Shown: positions 473 through 5,909 of the stretch, one piece after another
Position numbering within the stretch: position 1 is the stretch's first letter
How the letters are laid out: the number at the start of each line of letters is the position of its first letter
Virus record (IMG/VR): IMGVR_UViG_2711768010_000001
Length of the DNA: 7,741 bases
Direction: 5' to 3' (one strand)
From: a virus
Lineage: Duplodnaviria; Heunggongvirae; Uroviricota; Caudoviricetes
Notes under the pieces: model-generated
What the model saw: only the letters and a program-made list of their open reading frames with translations
Databases searched by the model: none
What the model was told of the DNA's origin: nothing
Translations under genes and position numbers: made by a program

Positions 473-712
473 NNNNNNNNNNNNNNNNNNNNNNNNNNNN
501 NNNNNNNNNNNNNNNNNNNNNNNNNNNNNNNNNNNNNNNNNNNNNNNNNNNNNNNNNNNNNNNNNNNNNNNNNNNNNNNNNNNNNNNNNNNNNNNNNNNN
601 NNNNNNNNNNNNNNNNNNNNNNNNNNNNNNNNNNNNNNNNNNNNNNNNNNNNNNNNNNNNNNNNNNNNNNNNNNNNNNNNNNNNNNNNNNNNNNNNNNNN
701 NNNNNNNNNNNN
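473..712. other. Run of 240 N (assembly gap or masked sequence)
   Basis: Directly visible: n from 473 to 712. Hides the endolysin 3' end and the 5' ends of Rz and Rz1. Confidence 1.
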
Positions 713-983: not shown

Positions 984-1493
984 TTAGCTAAAAAAAGGCA
1001 ACACGAAGCTAAAACTACCAACATAAAGTGCTGACCAGCTAGCAGCTGAAATCAGACTCACTGTATACACTTTCACTGGATGAAGTTGCAACATTCCTGC
1101 CACCAAAGGAGCAATATAACGCAGCACGGCGATAAAGCGCGAAGTGAAAAGTATTGACACAGAGTTATTTTGCAACTGAAGGCGAACCCGTTCTATTGTA
1201 TTGGAACGGCTTGATATTATACATGCAAGTTGAGGGATATGCCCAATTATTATACCAAGATGGTAATTAACGATAGTACCGCACCATGCGCCACTCATGA
1301 CCGTGATTCCAGCTTCCCATGGTGAAAGAGTCGTCTTGCTGACTGTAATTACAGTGGCCATCATAATTGATGCTGGTGGCAATATCGCCGAAATGAGTAA
1401 AGTGGATTTTGTGAACGCTATTATAAAAAGAAGCCCCCATAGGCGATATGGATGAAGTACAAAATAGTTCATCAAAGCATTTATCCACTCCAT
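984..1493 (-). CDS. DedA/YqaA-family (SNARE-associated-like) polytopic inner-membrane protein; a moron gene opposite to the late operon
   Basis: Minus-strand ORF of about 169 codons. ATG at 1493-1491 preceded by AAGGAAAG (the track's TTG at 1496 is one codon upstream). Several hydrophobic segments. Motif pattern LPP-S-(x)n-SPW ... G-x-x-NYHLG ... AG resembles E. coli YqaA as recalled. Sits in an AT-rich island (about 896-1560) between the lysis and packaging modules. Stop TAA. Confidence 0.75.
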   Translation of the reverse strand: MEWINALMNYFVLHPYRLWGLLFIIAFTKSTLLISAILPPASIMMATVITVSKTTLSPWEAGITVMSGAWCGTIVNYHLGIIIGHIPQLACIISSRSNTIERVRLQLQNNSVSILFTSRFIAVLRYIAPLVAGMLQLHPVKVYTVSLISAASWSALYVGSFSFVLPFFS

Positions 1494-1546
1494 CAATGTC
1501 TTTCCTTCTGTGAATTTTTCTTTGCTATTTAACCGTGATACGACTT

Positions 1547-1690: not shown

Positions 1691-2455
1691 ATGGCAAAAC
1701 CGGACTGGGAGGCCATCGAATCGGCATACCGGGCCGGAGTCCTTAGCCTCCGTGATATAGGCGAGAAATACGGCGTTACAGAAGGGGCTATCAGGAAGAG
1801 GGCCAAAAAGCTTGGTTGGGCACGCAGTGGCGGTACGCAGGTTTGCAAAAATGGTACGCAAAAAAGGAAAGTGCGTACCAGCAGAAAGCCTGCCATTACT
1901 GGCCTTACACAAAAAAGTACGCAACTAAAAACAGAATCTACACCGGATACGAAACCGATACGCGGAATGCGTACCGATCCCCCGACTAACCCATTCCAAC
2001 CCGGTAACCAGCAGGCATTAAAACACGGTGGTTATGCCCGTCGCCTTCTGCTCAAAGATGAGGTGATAGAGGACGCTAAAGCGTTGACGCTCGAGGACGA
2101 ATTATTTCGCCTTCGTGCTAACAACCTTGTCGCTGCAGAGAATATTGGTCGGTGGTTGGTGTCGCTGGAAGATGCTAATGGGGACCAGGAAAGGAAGATG
2201 CTGATTGAAAATATCAGCGCCGCCGAGAAAGCAATGATGCGCAATACAGTTCGTATTGAGTCCATCGTTGGCACGCTTGCGACGGTAGGAAAAATATTTG
2301 CTGATACAGCCTACCGCAAGGCCGCCACTGATAAGGTGTCTCTGGAGGCTGATCGTCTTCGCCGTGATGCAGGTATTGATGATGGCAATGGAGAGCGTGA
2401 CCTCAATGACTTCTACTCTGACATCCAAACCGACGCTGAATCCGGCTTTACGTAG
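1691..2455 (+). CDS. terS: Terminase small subunit (TerS) with N-terminal helix-turn-helix
   Basis: ATG at 1691 preceded by AGGAAG with an 8-nt spacer. N-terminus LSLRDIGEKYGVTEGAIRKRAKKLGW is a typical TerS DNA-binding HTH. Basic low-complexity linker, then a helical C-terminal region. Immediately upstream of and overlapping the large terminase gene. Stop TAG 2453-2455. Confidence 0.88.
   Translation: MAKPDWEAIESAYRAGVLSLRDIGEKYGVTEGAIRKRAKKLGWARSGGTQVCKNGTQKRKVRTSRKPAITGLTQKSTQLKTESTPDTKPIRGMRTDPPTNPFQPGNQQALKHGGYARRLLLKDEVIEDAKALTLEDELFRLRANNLVAAENIGRWLVSLEDANGDQERKMLIENISAAEKAMMRNTVRIESIVGTLATVGKIFADTAYRKAATDKVSLEADRLRRDAGIDDGNGERDLNDFYSDIQTDAESGFT
1832..1975. repeat. Cluster of five GTACGCA / TGCGTAC repeats inside terS (candidate pac or TerS-binding array)
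   Basis: ggtacgca at 1832-1839 and 1853-1860; tgcgtacc at 1872-1879; gtacgca at 1917-1923; tgcgtacc at 1968-1975. Copies 2 and 3 form a perfect 8-bp inverted repeat with an 11-nt spacer. Found by direct reading. Confidence 0.35.
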
Positions 2456-3809
2456 TTTCTGGACTATGCGGGCACGTAACAAAGTGCTTTATGGTGGTCG
2501 GTCATCGTCAAAATCATGGGATGCCGCTGGCATTGCCATATTTCTGTCGAATAAATACACCCTGCGTTTTTGTTGTGCCCGTCAGATCCAGAATAAAATC
2601 GAAGAGTCGGTGTATACCCTGCTCAAAATTCAGATAGACAGGTTTGGTCTGCGGCACCGTTTCCGTATTCTGAACAACAAAATCATTAACCGGGTTACTG
2701 GCTCGGAATTTGTTTTTTATGGATTATGGCGCAACATCGAAGAAATTAAGTCACTGGAGGGGATCGATGTGTTGTGGCTGGAAGAAGCCCACGCACTGAC
2801 GGAATACCAGTGGAAAATTCTGGAGCCAACGATCCGTAAAGAGGGTTCGGAATGCTGGTTCATATTCAACCCCGGACTTGTTACTGATTTCGTCTGGCGC
2901 AACTTCGTTGTTGATCCGCCCGAAGGCACTCTCATCCGCAAAATTAACTATGACGAAAATCCGTTTCTGTCTGACACCATGCTTAAGGTTATCGACGCGG
3001 CGCGACGCCGTGATCCGGATGGTTTTAAACATGTGTATGAGGGCGTTCCGGAGTCTGATGATGATGCGGCAATCATCAAACTGTCTTGGATAGAAGCCGC
3101 AGTGGATGCGCACAAAACGTTAAATTTCGAACCCAGTGGAAGAAAGCGTATTGGCTTTGACGTGGCTGACAGTGGTACAGATAAGTGCGCTAACGTTTAC
3201 CGTCACGGATCCGTTGTTTTCTGGGCCGACGAATGGAAGGCCAAAGAAGATGAATTACTGAAGAGCTGCCAGCGTACTTATCAGGCGGCGCTGGAGCGTG
3301 AAGCAGATATTGTTTACGACTCTATCGGTGTTGGTGCGTCTGCCGGTGCTAAATTCTCTGAAATTAACGCTGACCGGAAGAGCGAGAACGCATACGCGCG
3401 ACGTGTGAATTACCAGAGGTTTAACGCCGGTGCTGGTGTGCATGAGCCAGATGACGAGTACAACGGCATCCCCAACAAAGACTTTTTCGCAAATCTTAAG
3501 GCTCAGGCATGGTGGCTGGTGGCTGACCGTTTCAGAAATACGTTTAACGCCATTAACAACGGAGAACAGTATCCTGTGGATGAGCTGATCAGCATAGATT
3601 CTCGTTGTCCGTTGCTTGAAAAGCTGAAACTGGAACTGACAACACCTCATCGTGATTTCGACCGTAACGGACGTGTGATGGTCGAAAGTAAAAAAGACCT
3701 CGCAAAACGCGAGATACCGTCACCAAACGTTGCTGATGCATTCATTATGGCCTTCGCGCCAATCGATACATCGCTGGATATCTGGGAACAGCTGGGGAGA
3801 CAGGCCTGA
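2406..3809 (+). CDS. terL: Terminase large subunit (TerL), PBSX/SPP1-type ATPase-nuclease
   Basis: Walker A-like VLYGGRSSSKSWDAAG and Walker B-like IDVLWLEEAH in the N-terminal half; acidic nuclease-type motifs (IGFDVADSGTDK, YDSIGVG) in the C-terminal half. The frame is open from 2298, but the first 36 codons overlap terS. Start is ambiguous among ATGs at 2382, 2388, 2406 and 2466; 2406 chosen (GGAGAG 12 nt upstream, N-terminus MTSTLTSKPTLNPALRSFW). Stop TGA 3807-3809. Confidence 0.9.
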   Translation: MTSTLTSKPTLNPALRSFWTMRARNKVLYGGRSSSKSWDAAGIAIFLSNKYTLRFCCARQIQNKIEESVYTLLKIQIDRFGLRHRFRILNNKIINRVTGSEFVFYGLWRNIEEIKSLEGIDVLWLEEAHALTEYQWKILEPTIRKEGSECWFIFNPGLVTDFVWRNFVVDPPEGTLIRKINYDENPFLSDTMLKVIDAARRRDPDGFKHVYEGVPESDDDAAIIKLSWIEAAVDAHKTLNFEPSGRKRIGFDVADSGTDKCANVYRHGSVVFWADEWKAKEDELLKSCQRTYQAALEREADIVYDSIGVGASAGAKFSEINADRKSENAYARRVNYQRFNAGAGVHEPDDEYNGIPNKDFFANLKAQAWWLVADRFRNTFNAINNGEQYPVDELISIDSRCPLLEKLKLELTTPHRDFDRNGRVMVESKKDLAKREIPSPNVADAFIMAFAPIDTSLDIWEQLGRQA

Positions 3810-5275
3810 TGGCACGAAACAAACAAGCCCTGCGGCGAACTGTGCAGGCCACAGCTGATGGTTATGAGAATTTTATTGCCCGCGTAGGGATGCAGACACC
3901 TAACCAGCACTCAGCATCCACCTACCGGGCTAATTTCACCAGTCGTAACCGCATGCTGGTGGAATGGTCCTATCGTTCATCCTAGATCATCGGCGAAGCA
4001 GTCGATGCTATCCCGGATGATATGACCCGCAAAGGCATTCGCATCACTTCGGAAATTGATGCAAAAGATCGTGGCATTCTCGAATCACAACTGGATGAGT
4101 TGCAAATCTGGGATGCGCTGAATGACGTGCTGAAATGGTCGCGCCTCTACGGCGGCGCGGTGGGTTTCATCATGATTGAGGGGTAGGCACCAATGACCCC
4201 GCTGCGACCCGAAACCATCGGTAAGGGCAAGTTTAAGGGGATTCTCCCGCTCGACCGCTGGATGGTCGACCCGGCACTGACCCGCCGCATTAAAGATATG
4301 GGGCCGGACCTGGGTAAACCTGAGTTTTACGATGTGGTGACCACAGCAACGGGAATTCCTGCCTGGCGCATTCATCACAGTCGCCTGATTCGCTTTGATG
4401 GCGTCACGTTGCCATTTCAGCAGAAGATGACCGAGAACGAATGGGGAATGTCGGTTGTAGAGCGTATCTGGGATCGTCTTACCGCGTTCGACAGCGCTAC
4501 TGTCGGCGCGGCGCAGCTGGTCTACAAGGCGCATTTGCGTACCTACAGCGTGGAGAAGCTACGCGAGCTTATCGCACTTGGTGGTCCTGCGTATGAAGCG
4601 TTGCTGAAGAATATCGACCTGATTCGACAGTTCCAGAGTAATGAAGGCATGACGCTCATGGACTCGCGGGATAAGTTTGAAACCCATCAGTACAGCTTCA
4701 GTGGTCTGGATGACATCCTTTCGCAGTTTGTAGAACAGATTAGTGGCGCTGTTGGTATCCCACTGGTGCGGTTGTTCGGACAGTCCCCGAAAGGATTTTC
4801 TACCGGTGATGCAGACCTTGCCAACTATTACGATCGCATCAGTTCGTTGCAGGAGAGGCGTTTACGTCTTCCGGTGCGGCGGATACTGGACATCATGCAT
4901 CGTTCGGAACTTGGCAAGCCGCTGCCGGACGATTTCACGTTTGAGTTTAACCCGCTCTGGCAAATGTCTGATGTCGATCGCTCAACGGTGGCGTTAAACA
5001 CCACCAACGCAATCAGTACGGCGCTGGGTGATGGTCTGATGACACTGAAAGCCGCTATGACTGATTTGCGAGAAAATTCTGACGTAACCGGCATCGGGGC
5101 ATCCATTACCGACGAGGACATCGAGAATGCCGAAGATGAAGCGCCGCCCGGCATCGGCGAACCTGATGACGAACCGCAGGAGCCGTCAGGCGGAAATCCG
5201 GTATCGAACCAGCCTACGCAGGATAGCGAGGGCGGTCGGAGACATCGTAAATGGTCGCTACGATGGTTCAAATGA
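3809..5275 (+). pseudogene. Portal protein gene: one continuous 489-codon frame (terminal TGA included) interrupted by two in-frame TAG codons (3983-3985 and 4184-4186)
   Basis: ATG at 3809 overlaps the terL stop (tgATG) and follows GGGGAG. Hand translation of frame 2: 58 codons (MARNKQALRR...VEWSYRSS), TAG, 66 codons (IIGEAVDAIPDDMTRKGI...LYGGAVGFIMIEG), TAG, then AP plus the 360-aa ORF 4193-5275. No frameshift. Size and position between terL and the Mu F-like gene fit a portal. Confidence 0.8.
4193..5275 (+). CDS. Largest intact ORF of the portal gene (C-terminal 360 codons); likely to be called as a separate CDS by gene finders
   Basis: ATG at 4193 with GAGGGG 9 nt upstream; same frame as 3809. 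Acidic C-terminal tail. Stop TGA 5273-5275. Whether it is translated on its own is unknown. Confidence 0.6.
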   Translation: MTPLRPETIGKGKFKGILPLDRWMVDPALTRRIKDMGPDLGKPEFYDVVTTATGIPAWRIHHSRLIRFDGVTLPFQQKMTENEWGMSVVERIWDRLTAFDSATVGAAQLVYKAHLRTYSVEKLRELIALGGPAYEALLKNIDLIRQFQSNEGMTLMDSRDKFETHQYSFSGLDDILSQFVEQISGAVGIPLVRLFGQSPKGFSTGDADLANYYDRISSLQERRLRLPVRRILDIMHRSELGKPLPDDFTFEFNPLWQMSDVDRSTVALNTTNAISTALGDGLMTLKAAMTDLRENSDVTGIGASITDEDIENAEDEAPPGIGEPDDEPQEPSGGNPVSNQPTQDSEGGRRHRKWSLRWFK

Positions 5276-5909
5276 CAGTATCACGGAAATTATTGCGGCG
5301 CTGGAGCGTTACAGTGAAATCATCACCCCCTGGGCGACAAAGGTCGCGGAAAACTTTACTGCGGACCTAACCCGGCAGAACGAGAAAGTTTGGCGGCAAC
5401 ACAGCAAGAACATCAGTCGCGAGCTCCGCAATCTTGTGGAAAGCGCTCCTGTGGGCCAGGTGATGCAATCCATCATCGCCGAACAGGTCAAGTACATCAA
5501 ATCTCTGCCTCTCGAGGCCGCAGACAGGGTGTACGACATCCAGAACAAAGCGATAGAGGCTGTTGTCACCGGTGGTCGGGCGGAGCAGTTTGCTAAAGAG
5601 ATTGCATCTACCGGCGATGTTGCTAAGTCTAGGGCCGATCTGATTGCCCGAACGGAACTGGGAAGAGCAACGGGCGCGCTGGATATGGCCCGAGCGATAG
5701 CTATTGGCTCGGATGGTTATATTTGGCGTACAGCCGATGATGGCGATGTCCGAGATTCCCACGATCACATGAAAGGTAAATTCGTCCGCTGGGATTCACC
5801 TCCAACTTTGGACGGCATGACCGGCCACGCGGGCGAGCTGCCAAACTGCCGCTGCTATAAAGAGATCGTGTTTGTTCGCGTTCCATTCGCAATGAAAAGG
5901 GCAGCATAA
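5127..5909 (+). CDS. Head morphogenesis protein, Mu F / SPP1 gp7 family
   Basis: C-terminal Mu F-like signature: ARTELGRA ... W ... DVRDSHDHMKGKFVRWD ... ELPNCRCY. ATG at 5127 with GAGG 9 nt upstream. No alternative start lies downstream of the portal stop, so it overlaps the portal 3' end by at least 110 nt. Stop TAA 5907-5909. Confidence 0.85.
   Translation: MPKMKRRPASANLMTNRRSRQAEIRYRTSLRRIARAVGDIVNGRYDGSNDSITEIIAALERYSEIITPWATKVAENFTADLTRQNEKVWRQHSKNISRELRNLVESAPVGQVMQSIIAEQVKYIKSLPLEAADRVYDIQNKAIEAVVTGGRAEQFAKEIASTGDVAKSRADLIARTELGRATGALDMARAIAIGSDGYIWRTADDGDVRDSHDHMKGKFVRWDSPPTLDGMTGHAGELPNCRCYKEIVFVRVPFAMKRAA

What the first reader, a model, noticed from the sequence alone, without database searches (positions are those of the whole stretch)
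1832..1975. Array of GTACGCA / TGCGTAC repeats inside terS, a candidate pac or TerS-binding site
Five copies of a 7-8-mer in mixed orientation within 145 bp, including a perfect 8-bp inverted repeat separated by 11 nt. In headful-packaging phages with this terminase type (SPP1, P22) the pac site lies within or next to terS and consists of short repeated TerS-binding sequences. The repeats also encode the repetitive basic linker of TerS (GTQ, GTQ, VRT, STQ, MRT), so DNA and protein repetition coincide.
Basis: seen in the sequence. Interest (0 to 1): 0.45.

Follow-up and report, generated by a model that had tools for sequence, protein, structure and literature searches.

The report
Packaging-recognition repeats inside terminase small-subunit gene
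A cluster of short DNA repeats inside a prophage's small-terminase gene is very probably the site that this protein's own DNA-binding domain recognises to start genome packaging, because in hundreds of related phages the repeat sequence changes in step with the protein's DNA-reading helix.

Summary
GTACGCA/TGCGTAC occurs five times in 1832-1975 and only once elsewhere in the 7.7-kb window. Three decayed copies lie in the same array.

The array sits in terS of an E. coli prophage. It starts right after the part coding for an N-terminal helix-turn-helix (HTH), in the part coding for a predicted disordered linker.

- About 450 distinct related terS genes each carry 3-9 copies of an 8-bp site, (G)GT-NNN-C-R, at this position. 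The site is 24-98 times denser there than in the flanks.
- The copies lie in all three reading frames and on both strands, and they are conserved at synonymous positions.
- The central NNN tracks the HTH recognition helix (EGAIRK with GTACGCA, DTAIRK with GTTCGCA, HGAINK with GTATCCA, HQAISK with GTTGCCA, HATILK with GTAACCA, and others). This held in an independent set of 78 prophages.
- One natural recombinant swapped helix and sites together.

Best reading: a TerS-binding array that serves as the pac recognition site. Binding and packaging ends remain untested, and I found no published description. I rate it a new variant of a known kind, of moderate to high interest.

The parts
1691..2455 (+). 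terS, terminase small subunit ORF (254 aa)
   Evidence: PHROG 370 'terminase small subunit', E = 7.5e-95, full length. No Pfam or NCBIfam TerS family matches it. It lies directly upstream of terL and overlaps it. RefSeq annotates it as 'hypothetical protein'.
1706..1813 (+). Coding region of the three-helix HTH domain: H1 aa 6-15, H2 aa 20-27, H3 (recognition helix) aa 31-41. The specificity string TEGAIRKRAK is aa 30-39, nt 1778-1807.
   Evidence: The AlphaFold2 model has pLDDT 81-90 over residues 1-40, with helices 6-15, 20-27 and 31-41. Weak Pfam HTH hits cover residues 17-41. Residues 30-37 are the ones that co-vary with the DNA motif.
1819..1826 (+). Decayed site copy GGCACGCA (one mismatch). 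Close relatives have GGTACGCA here, in the W-V-R frame.
   Evidence: position 130 of terS in L010-L022, GZ7 and others
1832..1839 (+). Site copy GGTACGCA (frame G-T-Q)
1840..1847 (+). Decayed site copy GGTTTGCA (two mismatches). Relatives have GGTACGCA here, in the V-R-K frame.
   Evidence: position 151 of terS in relatives
1853..1860 (+). Site copy GGTACGCA (frame G-T-Q); left arm of the inverted pair
1872..1879 (-). Site copy in reverse orientation (TGCGTACC on the + strand; frame V-R-T); right arm of the inverted pair, 11 nt from the left arm
   Evidence: I7
1904..1911 (+). Decayed site copy CTTACACA. Some relatives have a perfect copy at this aligned position.
   Evidence: position 215 in L024, L028, L051, L077
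1916..1923 (+). Site copy aGTACGCA (frame S-T-Q)
1968..1975 (-). Site copy in reverse orientation (TGCGTACC on the + strand; frame M-R-T)
1832..1984 (+). Coding region of the predicted disordered linker of TerS (aa 48-98), which holds the array
   Evidence: pLDDT below 50 for residues 48-98
2030..2287 (+). Coding region of the long helical hairpin (aa 114-199), the presumed oligomerisation core of TerS
   Evidence: AF2 helices 114-161 and 165-199, pLDDT 77-92. The oligomerisation role is inferred from known TerS architecture.
2367..3809 (+). terL, terminase large subunit (probable ATG at 2367; overlaps terS by 89 nt)
   Evidence: Pfam Terminase_3 E = 4.5e-38, TIGR01547 PBSX family E = 3.1e-41. 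The start is placed by homology with the GZ7 annotation.

Best explanation
The repeats are an array of binding sites for the helix-turn-helix domain of the small terminase (TerS) encoded by the same gene. The array is the recognition part of the phage's packaging-initiation (pac) site.

Proposed mechanism: TerS forms an oligomer through its C-terminal helical hairpin, which displays several N-terminal HTH domains. Each HTH reads one 8-bp site, (G)GT-ACG-C-A, by direct contacts from the start of helix 3 (T30-E-G-A-I-R35). The sites are spaced 8-21 bp apart, in both orientations, over about 160 bp. Several weak contacts therefore add up to one specific nucleoprotein complex on concatemeric phage DNA. 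TerL (PBSX/Terminase_3 type) is recruited, cuts nearby, and headful packaging proceeds.

The sites are written into the codons of the disordered TerS linker, directly 3' of the HTH codons. Reader and site therefore form one compact cassette of about 300 bp that is inherited and exchanged together.

Shown here: the array exists; selection acts at the DNA level; the site co-varies with the recognition helix; helix and sites were exchanged together in one recombinant.

Inferred: physical binding by TerS, oligomer geometry, the packaging role, and the position of the cut.
For: 1. Identity and place. The ORF is a TerS (PHROG 370, E = 7.5e-95). It lies next to a PBSX/Terminase_3 TerL and portal, MuF and scaffold genes.

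2. Enrichment.
- Window-type terS: 532 copies in 63 kb of terS against 59 in 585 kb of flanks, in 83 loci.
- HK639-type terS: 256 in 43 kb against 17 in 478 kb.
- Whole genomes: GZ7 has 7 of 10 copies, and HK639 4 of 10, inside terS.

3. Selection on DNA, not protein.
- The same word is read as W-V-R, G-T-Q or V-R-K, and in reverse as V-R-T or E-R-V.
- At aligned motif positions in 64 distinct HK639-type genes, Val is GTA in 247 of 256 cases against 136 of 669 elsewhere in the gene. Arg is CGC in 252 of 253 against 269 of 990.
- Third-position entropy is 0.13 against 0.51 bits, p = 0.003. In window-type genes it is 0.21 against 0.60 bits, p = 0.004.

4. Co-variation.
- In 369 distinct regions, the most frequent 7-mer found de novo is GTNNNC(A) in 367. 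NNN follows the helix class.
- The class-by-motif matrix is diagonal, with 24-98-fold enrichment over flanks.
- In an independent set of 78 prophages from different species, 77 have a GTNNNC[AG] word as their commonest 7-mer, and its central triplet follows the same helix-to-motif mapping.
- GTACGCA goes with the EGAIRK helix in three unrelated TerS body types, and with TerL of at least two Pfam families.

5. Cassette exchange. L163 is 93-100% identical to HK639-type DNA from nt 300 of terS onward (83% in nt 239-298). It nevertheless carries helix SHQAISKRAK and three GTTGCCA sites.

6. Relocated array. L615 has a TerS with the SEGAIRKKAK helix but no sites in terS. Four GTACGCA copies lie 3.6 kb upstream.

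7. Structure. The HTH is predicted with confidence, the co-varying residues open helix 3, and the array codes for a low-confidence linker.
Against: - There is no experimental binding or end-mapping for any member. The SEN34 authors could not identify packaging sequences.
- Helix and array are adjacent, so linkage alone would produce some association. The argument rests on all copies changing in concert, not on association alone.
- Sequences are phylogenetically related, so the number of independent specificity switches is about 9-12, not hundreds.
- Site spacings of 12, 13 and 15 bp are not in helical phase, so the geometry of an oligomer on the array is unclear.
- For SPP1/SF6 TerS, the isolated HTH binds pac DNA without sequence preference (PMC4737164). 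Sequence-specific reading is therefore not the rule for TerS.
- The inverted pair can also fold as an mRNA hairpin (z = -2.6).
- Headful packaging is inferred from the TerL family only. Some members could be cos phages, in which the array would act as cosB does in lambda.
- The window's own prophage has two amber codons in its portal gene and three decayed sites, so this particular copy may no longer package.
Confidence: 0.75

Rival explanations
1. The repeats are a by-product of a repetitive, low-complexity basic linker in the protein (GTQ/VRK units). They would be generated by replication slippage and kept, if at all, for protein reasons.
For: Copy number varies through 12-nt indels that add or remove one G-T-Q-x unit. 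The region codes for a disordered, basic linker. Unrelated GTQ-repeat and AQVRT-repeat proteins also give GTACGCA arrays (L541, L573, L515, L575).
Against: - The same DNA word is used in three frames and in reverse orientation within single genes, giving unrelated peptides.
- Synonymous positions inside the word are far less variable than elsewhere.
- Between classes the encoded residue changes non-conservatively (R, S, A, T, N) in all copies at once, while the DNA frame GGT...CA is kept.
- L615 carries the array outside terS.
Confidence: 0.03
2. TerS does bind the array, but the array's function is autoregulation. It would act as a roadblock or operator inside terS that limits terS-terL expression, rather than as the packaging signal.
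For: The sites lie inside the transcribed and translated terS region, upstream of terL. The co-variation shows only that the HTH and the sites are matched. It does not show what binding is for.
Against: - TerS proteins are known to use their DNA-binding domains to recognise pac or cos (PMC13595956).
- In P22, and partly in SPP1, the recognition region lies within terS.
- The relocated array in L615 lies 3.6 kb upstream of terS, where it could not block terS translation.
- No separate candidate pac was seen.

The two functions are not mutually exclusive.
Confidence: 0.1
3. The inverted copies form an mRNA hairpin that regulates translation or stability, and the apparent co-variation is RNA stem covariation. 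Alternatively, the sites are bound by another phage or host protein.
For: A 9-bp stem at 1852-1880 is predicted, and the 161-nt segment folds better than shuffles do (z = -2.58). The layout of three forward copies and one reverse copy keeps complementarity when the motif changes.
Against: - A hairpin needs only two arms, but 3-9 copies are conserved and most are direct repeats.
- In window-type genes, forward copies occur upstream of any reverse partner.
- No Rfam family matches.
- The factor whose sequence changes with the motif is the adjacent TerS helix. No other co-varying protein was looked for, so a second binder is not excluded.
Confidence: 0.05
4. The array is a cosB-like element of a cos-type (unit-length) packaging system, not a headful pac site.
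For: Lambda cosB is likewise a set of repeated elements read by the TerS N-terminal HTH and lies next to the TerS gene (my knowledge of lambda; PMC13595956). The HTH-plus-site cassette is combined with several TerL families, some without a Pfam assignment. The packaging mode of those members is unknown.
Against: - The window's TerL is PBSX/Terminase_3, a family usually linked with headful packaging (my knowledge).
- The complete records of relatives carry no cos annotation. They are either circular or opened arbitrarily at terS or terL.
- In the window no candidate nicking site was examined.
Confidence: 0.07

Closest known systems
Phage lambda cosB (R3, R2, R1 elements read by the gpNu1 winged HTH)
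   Same: Several copies of a short element are recognised by the N-terminal HTH of the small terminase, placed next to the terminase genes. Multivalent binding positions TerL for the first cut.
   Different: Lambda's R elements are about 16 bp, lie in non-coding DNA between cosN and Nu1, need IHF bending, and belong to a cos system. Here the sites are 8 bp, number 3-9, lie inside the terS reading frame, and are paired with a PBSX-type TerL. No sequence or detectable profile similarity of the protein was found.
Phage P22 pac (22-bp GAAGATTTATCTGAAGTCGTTA inside gene 3)
   Same: The packaging signal is embedded in the coding sequence of the small terminase gene of an enterobacterial temperate phage. 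It can be attenuated at wobble positions (PMC11260489).
   Different: P22 pac is a single asymmetric 22-bp sequence, not an array of short repeats. P22 TerS is thought to bind DNA through other parts of the protein (PMC4737164). The sequences are unrelated.
Bacillus phage SPP1/SF6 pac (pacL, pacC, pacR with boxA/B/C direct repeats)
   Same: An HTH-bearing TerS ring, a pac region with sets of direct repeats, and partial overlap with the start of the terS gene.
   Different: In SF6 the isolated HTH showed no preference for the repeats, and recognition was attributed to DNA shape and wrapping. Here the repeat sequence tracks the recognition helix, which implies base-specific reading.
Phage P1 pac (seven TGATCA/G hexamers flanking the cut, inside pacA)
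   Same: A cluster of very short repeated elements inside the small-terminase gene serves as the packaging signal (my knowledge of P1).
   Different: P1's hexamers contain GATC and are controlled by Dam methylation. The GTACGCA site has no GATC (sequence). The proteins are unrelated.

Membership tests
Terminase small subunit (TerS) | Sequence membership in a curated or clustered TerS family | tested here: met
   PHROG 370 'terminase small subunit', E = 7.5e-95 over residues 1-252. No Pfam-A or NCBIfam TerS model matches, so membership rests on PHROG clustering plus synteny.
Terminase small subunit (TerS) | Gene directly upstream of terL in the head-morphogenesis operon | tested here: met
   terS 1691-2455 overlaps terL (2367-3809; Terminase_3/TIGR01547). 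Portal, MuF and DUF2213 genes follow.
Terminase small subunit (TerS) | N-terminal DNA-binding domain plus helical oligomerisation core | tested here: met
   The AF2 model has a three-helix HTH (6-41, pLDDT 81-90), a disordered linker (48-98) and a long helical hairpin (114-199). The oligomeric state was not predicted. Foldseek against the PDB gave no significant match.
pac site of a headful-packaging phage | Located in or next to the terS gene | tested here: met
   The array at 1819-1975 lies inside terS.
pac site of a headful-packaging phage | Specifically bound by the cognate TerS | not testable with these tools
   Indirect support only: the site sequence co-varies with the TerS recognition helix across about 450 distinct genes and 9-12 specificity classes.
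pac site of a headful-packaging phage | The first cut of the packaging series maps at or near the site, and virion DNA is circularly permuted and terminally redundant | not testable with these tools
   No read-level or restriction data are available. Related records are circular or opened at terS or terL by convention. The RCIP0034 record start coincides with the terL ATG, not with a packaging end.
pac site of a headful-packaging phage | TerL of a headful-type lineage | tested here: inconclusive
   The TerL is Terminase_3/PBSX family. Linking that family to a packaging mode rests on general knowledge, not on a test made here.
Lambda-type cosB | Adjacent cosN nicking site and cohesive ends | not tested
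   No cos annotation appears in related complete genomes. No search for a nicking site was made.
P1-type pac (Dam-regulated hexamers) | Repeats contain GATC and are subject to Dam methylation | tested here: not met
   The site (G)GTACGCA and its class variants contain no GATC.
Structured RNA element | Match to a described RNA family | tested here: not met
   No Rfam match at E <= 1 in 1400-2600.

The most novel reading that the evidence does not exclude
This TerS lineage carries a portable packaging-specificity cassette about 300 bp long. It comprises a 47-residue HTH followed at once by its own 8-bp sites, which are written into the codons of a disordered linker.

A simple residue-to-base relation at the start of helix 3 sets the central three bases of the site. 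Examples: position 3 Gly goes with GTA..., while Thr, Val or Gln go with GTT...; position 6 Arg goes with ..CGC, while Asn, Ser, Leu or His go with ..NCC or ..AAC.

If so, phages would change packaging identity by swapping or co-mutating the cassette. The linker's amino-acid sequence would be a passenger of the DNA signal. That would give sequence-specific, multivalent pac recognition by single HTH-to-site contacts. It contrasts with the shape-based model derived from SF6 and could be reprogrammed.
Probability: 0.5. Interest if true: 0.75.

Novelty: new variant of a known kind. Interest (0 to 1): 0.62.

Why it matters
Pac sites are known for only a handful of phages. For ES18 the pac site is still unknown and for SEN34 the packaging sequences were not identified. 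How a ring of TerS HTH domains picks out viral DNA is also unsettled, because the best-studied HTH (SF6) shows no sequence preference.

This lineage is widespread in prophages of Enterobacterales, Pseudomonas and Betaproteobacteria. It is present in 209 of 5426 complete E. coli genomes and is usually annotated as 'hypothetical protein'. It offers a directly testable case of base-specific recognition, with about ten natural specificity variants and one natural swap.

If confirmed it would:
- allow pac sites and packaging direction to be predicted from sequence for hundreds of prophages, which bears on lateral and generalised transduction of resistance genes in Klebsiella and E. coli;
- explain an overlapping code in which a DNA signal fixes protein residues;
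- provide parts for engineering packaging specificity in phage-based delivery.

Tried and rejected
- Record ends as packaging ends. RCIP0034 and RCIP0098 break inside the terS match. The break coincides with the terL start codon (window 2367), and the paper mentions no terminus analysis. I rejected this as evidence.
- Fold comparison. Foldseek of the full-length AF2 model against the PDB gave only coiled-coil noise (best E = 0.58).
- Sequence and profile searches of the PDB gave nothing significant. The best hit was the TyrR C-terminal HTH at E = 0.58.
- Rfam: no match.
- Literature. Searches on the motif, on pac sites and repeats, and on the names of related phages found no description of this array. 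The supplement of the Chi-site paper, which might list packaging types, is not held.
- The Pseudomonas AH14a/AH14b helper-satellite pair was considered as a test for a pac mimic. Its putative TerS is not of this family.
- A codon-usage count in window-type genes that defined 'in motif' by the exact word is circular. I do not use it, and replaced it with the aligned-column test.
- I looked at whether metagenomic contigs end near the array. Contig ends cluster a few hundred bp upstream of terS, which is more likely to reflect prophage-boundary or assembly breaks (tables). I did not pursue this.
- The scan for three GTACGCA copies in viral contigs showed that about 22% of arrays are not next to this HTH. 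Most of those are generic tandem repeats in unrelated genes. The word alone is therefore not diagnostic.

Full report
**1. The observation**

The window holds GTACGCA six times, counting both strands, against 0.76 expected. None of 200 dinucleotide shuffles reached six. Five copies lie in 1832-1975:
- GGTACGCA at 1832-1839 and 1853-1860
- TGCGTACC at 1872-1879 and 1968-1975
- aGTACGCA at 1916-1923

The second and third copies form a perfect 9-bp inverted repeat with 11 nt between the arms. I also ran a null that did not fix the word in advance: the largest cluster of any 7-mer within 150 bp. It reached five in 2 of 1000 Markov simulations.

**2. Context**

The array lies in ORF 1691-2455. This ORF matches PHROG 370 'terminase small subunit' over its full length (E = 7.5e-95). 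It matches no Pfam or NCBIfam TerS model, and RefSeq calls it 'hypothetical protein'.

It overlaps a PBSX/Terminase_3 TerL (2367-3809). Portal, MuF-like, DUF2213 and cement-protein genes follow. The window is an E. coli prophage: 209 of 5426 complete genomes have a match. It is about 88% identical to Klebsiella phages such as GZ7.

The AlphaFold2 model has four parts:
- A confident three-helix HTH: helices 6-15, 20-27 and 31-41, pLDDT 81-90.
- A low-confidence segment at residues 48-98.
- A second, shorter low-confidence stretch at residues 109-124.
- A long helical hairpin at residues 114-199.

The array (nt 1819-1975, residues 44-95) therefore codes for the predicted disordered linker directly after the HTH.

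**3. The repeats are conserved as DNA**

In 83 IMG/VR loci with 70-100% identical TerS, the 7-mer occurs 532 times in 63 kb of terS and 59 times in 585 kb of flanks. All the terS copies lie at nt 130-300 of the gene.

Within single genes the word is read in frame 0 (W-V-R, V-R-K), in frame 1 (G-T-Q), occasionally in frame 2, and on the opposite strand (V-R-T).

Alignment with these relatives shows three further positions in the window that are decayed copies: 1819-1826, 1840-1847 and 1904-1911.

Phages HK639 and SEN34 have a TerS that is only about 31-33% identical and belongs to another PHROG. They share the N-terminal 45 residues and carry GGTACGCA four times, all read as V-R.

At those aligned codons, in 64 distinct HK639-type genes that are as little as 73% identical in DNA:
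- Val is GTA in 247 of 256 cases, against 136 of 669 elsewhere in the gene.
- Arg is CGC in 252 of 253 cases, against 269 of 990 elsewhere.
- Third-position entropy is 0.13 against 0.51 bits (p = 0.003).

An aligned-column test in window-type genes gives 0.21 against 0.60 bits (p = 0.004). That test is mildly circular, because the columns were chosen by motif presence.

In the complete genomes of GZ7 and HK639, the copies outside terS are at the chance level.

**4. The site co-varies with the recognition helix**

A tblastn search with the first 46 residues found 56 phage records from Klebsiella, Edwardsiella, Erwinia, Enterobacter, Providencia, Pseudomonas, Aeromonas, Acidovorax and others. 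In the 15 of 18 fetched loci whose HTH could be located, the stretch after the HTH codons carries repeated copies (two to seven) of a 7-mer of the form GT-NNN-CA. NNN differs between phages whose helix 3 differs.

I enlarged the set to 503 loci (369 distinct regions) and searched de novo for the commonest strand-collapsed 7-mer in the 250 nt after the HTH. It was GTNNNC(A) in 367 cases.

| Helix 3 | Site | Distinct regions |
|---|---|---|
| x[ED]G[AG]IRK | GTACGCA | 144 |
| xDTA[IV]RK | GTTCGCA | 78 |
| xHATILK | GTAACCA | 59 |
| AHNTILK | GTGACCA | 1 |
| xHG[AS][IV]NK | GTATCCA | 47 |
| xHQAISK | GTTGCCA | 23 |
| SHVxI[SH]K | GTTAACA | 9 |
| SHTAINK | GTTTCCA | 2 |

The class-by-motif matrix is diagonal, and each cognate core is 24-98 times denser in the region than in the rest of its loci.

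The common site is (G)GT-NNN-C-R. The outer flanks are not conserved. Neighbouring forward copies are mostly 12, 13 or 15 bp apart.

An independent test set came from one genome per species: 78 prophages of Gamma- and Betaproteobacteria with a recognisable HTH. In 77 of them the commonest 7-mer had the same GTNNNC[AG] form, present 3-5 times in all but one, and its central triplet followed the same mapping. The set also added new helix variants: SHTAIQK with GTTGCCA, xHTAI[NG]K with GTTTCCA, and SHVAIxK with GTTACCA.

**5. Why linkage alone does not explain this**

Helix and array are adjacent and would be co-inherited in any case. The argument rests on four other points:
- All copies within an array are identical to each other, yet they differ between classes, while the outer GGT...CA and the layout are kept (three forward copies and one reverse; spacings 15 and 12, or 12 and 13).
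- The encoded residues change non-conservatively in concert. Examples are LVRK.EVRK.VR, LVSK.EVSK.VS, LVAK.EVA..VA, LVTK..VT..VT and LVN...VN..VN. The reverse copy changes ERVL to ERIL to ERQL.
- GTACGCA goes with the EGAIRK helix in three unrelated TerS bodies (window type, HK639 type, EhrS_59 type). It also goes with TerL of Terminase_3, of Terminase_6, and of unassigned families.
- L163 is 93-100% identical to HK639-type DNA from nt 300 of terS through terL (83% in nt 239-298). Its first 240 nt, however, carry helix SHQAISKRAK and three GTTGCCA sites.

One phage, L615, has a TerS with the SEGAIRKKAK helix and no sites in terS. It has four GTACGCA copies at 11, 11 and 9 bp spacing, 3.6 kb upstream.

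Conversely, of 113 distinct triple-GTACGCA arrays sampled from viral contigs, 88 lie directly after an EGAIRK-type HTH. Most of the remainder are generic tandem repeats.

**6. Mechanism**

The simplest account is that each HTH of an oligomeric TerS reads one site with the first residues of helix 3, and that the array nucleates the terminase on concatemeric DNA for the first cut. In other words, the array is the recognition part of pac.

The trend that Arg at helix position 6 goes with the CGC core, while Asn, Ser, Leu or His go with NCC or AAC, is what direct base contacts would predict. This is inference.

Binding, stoichiometry, the position of the cut and headful packaging are all inferred. 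The TerL family suggests headful packaging, and related complete records show no cos annotation.

**7. Rival explanations**

- Protein-level repetition is contradicted by the frames, strands, synonymous constraint and concerted residue changes described above.
- An autoregulatory operator cannot be excluded and could coexist with the packaging role.
- An mRNA hairpin is predicted (z = -2.58). It does not explain three or more direct copies, and no Rfam family matches.
- A cosB-like role would apply if some members turn out to be cos phages.

**8. Comparison with what is known**

The closest analogues are lambda cosB, P22 pac, SPP1/SF6 pac and P1 pac. The differences are set out in the closest-known section of this report.

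I found no description of this array or of the co-variation in the searchable literature. The SEN34 paper states that packaging sequences were not identified, and the ES18 pac site is still unknown. For SF6, the isolated HTH showed no sequence preference. A TerS lineage with evident base-specific reading is therefore of interest for that open question.

**9. Verdict**

I rate it a new variant of a known kind, with interest 0.62.

The window's own copy may be inactive. Its portal gene has two amber codons relative to a near-identical relative, and three of its eight array positions have decayed.

Noticed in passing
window 3809-5275 (stops at 3983-3985 and 4184-4186): The portal gene (Phage_portal_3) is interrupted by two in-frame amber codons: TAG where the near-identical locus L008 has TGG (Trp), and TAG where L008 has CAG (Gln). 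L006 is identical to the window over the compared portal region (3741-5289) and so shares both stops. The prophage is probably defective, unless its host suppresses amber codons.
   Followed up: yes
window 473-712: A run of 240 N masks the middle of the lysozyme-like ORF 109-768, so that gene cannot be assessed.
   Followed up: partly
window 984-1496 (- strand): A 170-aa membrane protein with a VTT/DedA-type domain (PF09335, E = 9e-14) is encoded on the opposite strand, between the lysis genes and terS. This is the usual place for a cargo ('moron') gene. GZ7 has a different small ORF there.
   Followed up: no
L163 (IMG/VR 3300045988_044613), terS at 4001-4651: A natural mosaic. It is HK639-type terS and terL from about nt 240 onward. 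Its HTH has helix SHQAISKRAK and it carries three GTTGCCA sites, as in Providencia phage PSTCR7lys. The recombination junction lies just after the array.
   Followed up: yes
L615, reverse strand: array at 5466-5503, terS at about 9124-9675: A GC-rich phage whose TerS has the SEGAIRKKAK helix but no GTACGCA in terS. Four copies (spacing 11, 11 and 9 bp) sit at the 3' end of a 146-aa ORF that I did not annotate, 3.6 kb upstream. This is a possible relocated recognition array. It is a single case.
   Followed up: partly
L508 at 6793 and L549 at 3521; also L505, L571, L620: These are other GTACGCA arrays not linked to this TerS. One example is four GGTACGCAGCC units plus an inverted copy, just upstream of a large ORF in GC-rich contigs. 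Another is palindromic CCTGTACGCA...TGCGTACAGG sets in short-ORF regions. Their function is unknown; they may be operators or iterons of unrelated proteins.
   Followed up: no
L522, reverse strand, around 5184: An array with the window-type layout (four forward GTACGCA copies and one reverse) lies in an 85-aa ORF. No EGAIRK-type HTH was found anywhere in the 12.7-kb locus. It could be a remnant, a frameshifted terS, or a pac mimic in a satellite.
   Followed up: partly
window 4536-4542 (- strand): The sixth GTACGCA copy lies in the portal gene. It recurs at the same offset (+2846 from the terS start) in L008, L011, L015, L017 and L020. A single copy at chance density is probably not functional.
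   Followed up: partly
window 1944-1963: A short direct repeat, GGATACGAAACCGATACGCGG (GATACG twice, 11 bp apart), lies between the last two sites. It encodes the conserved peptide DTKPIRG. The second unit is GATTCG in several relatives, so the DNA repeat is not conserved.
   Followed up: partly
window 2367-2455: terS and terL overlap by 89 nt in different frames. The same arrangement is annotated in GZ7.
   Followed up: partly
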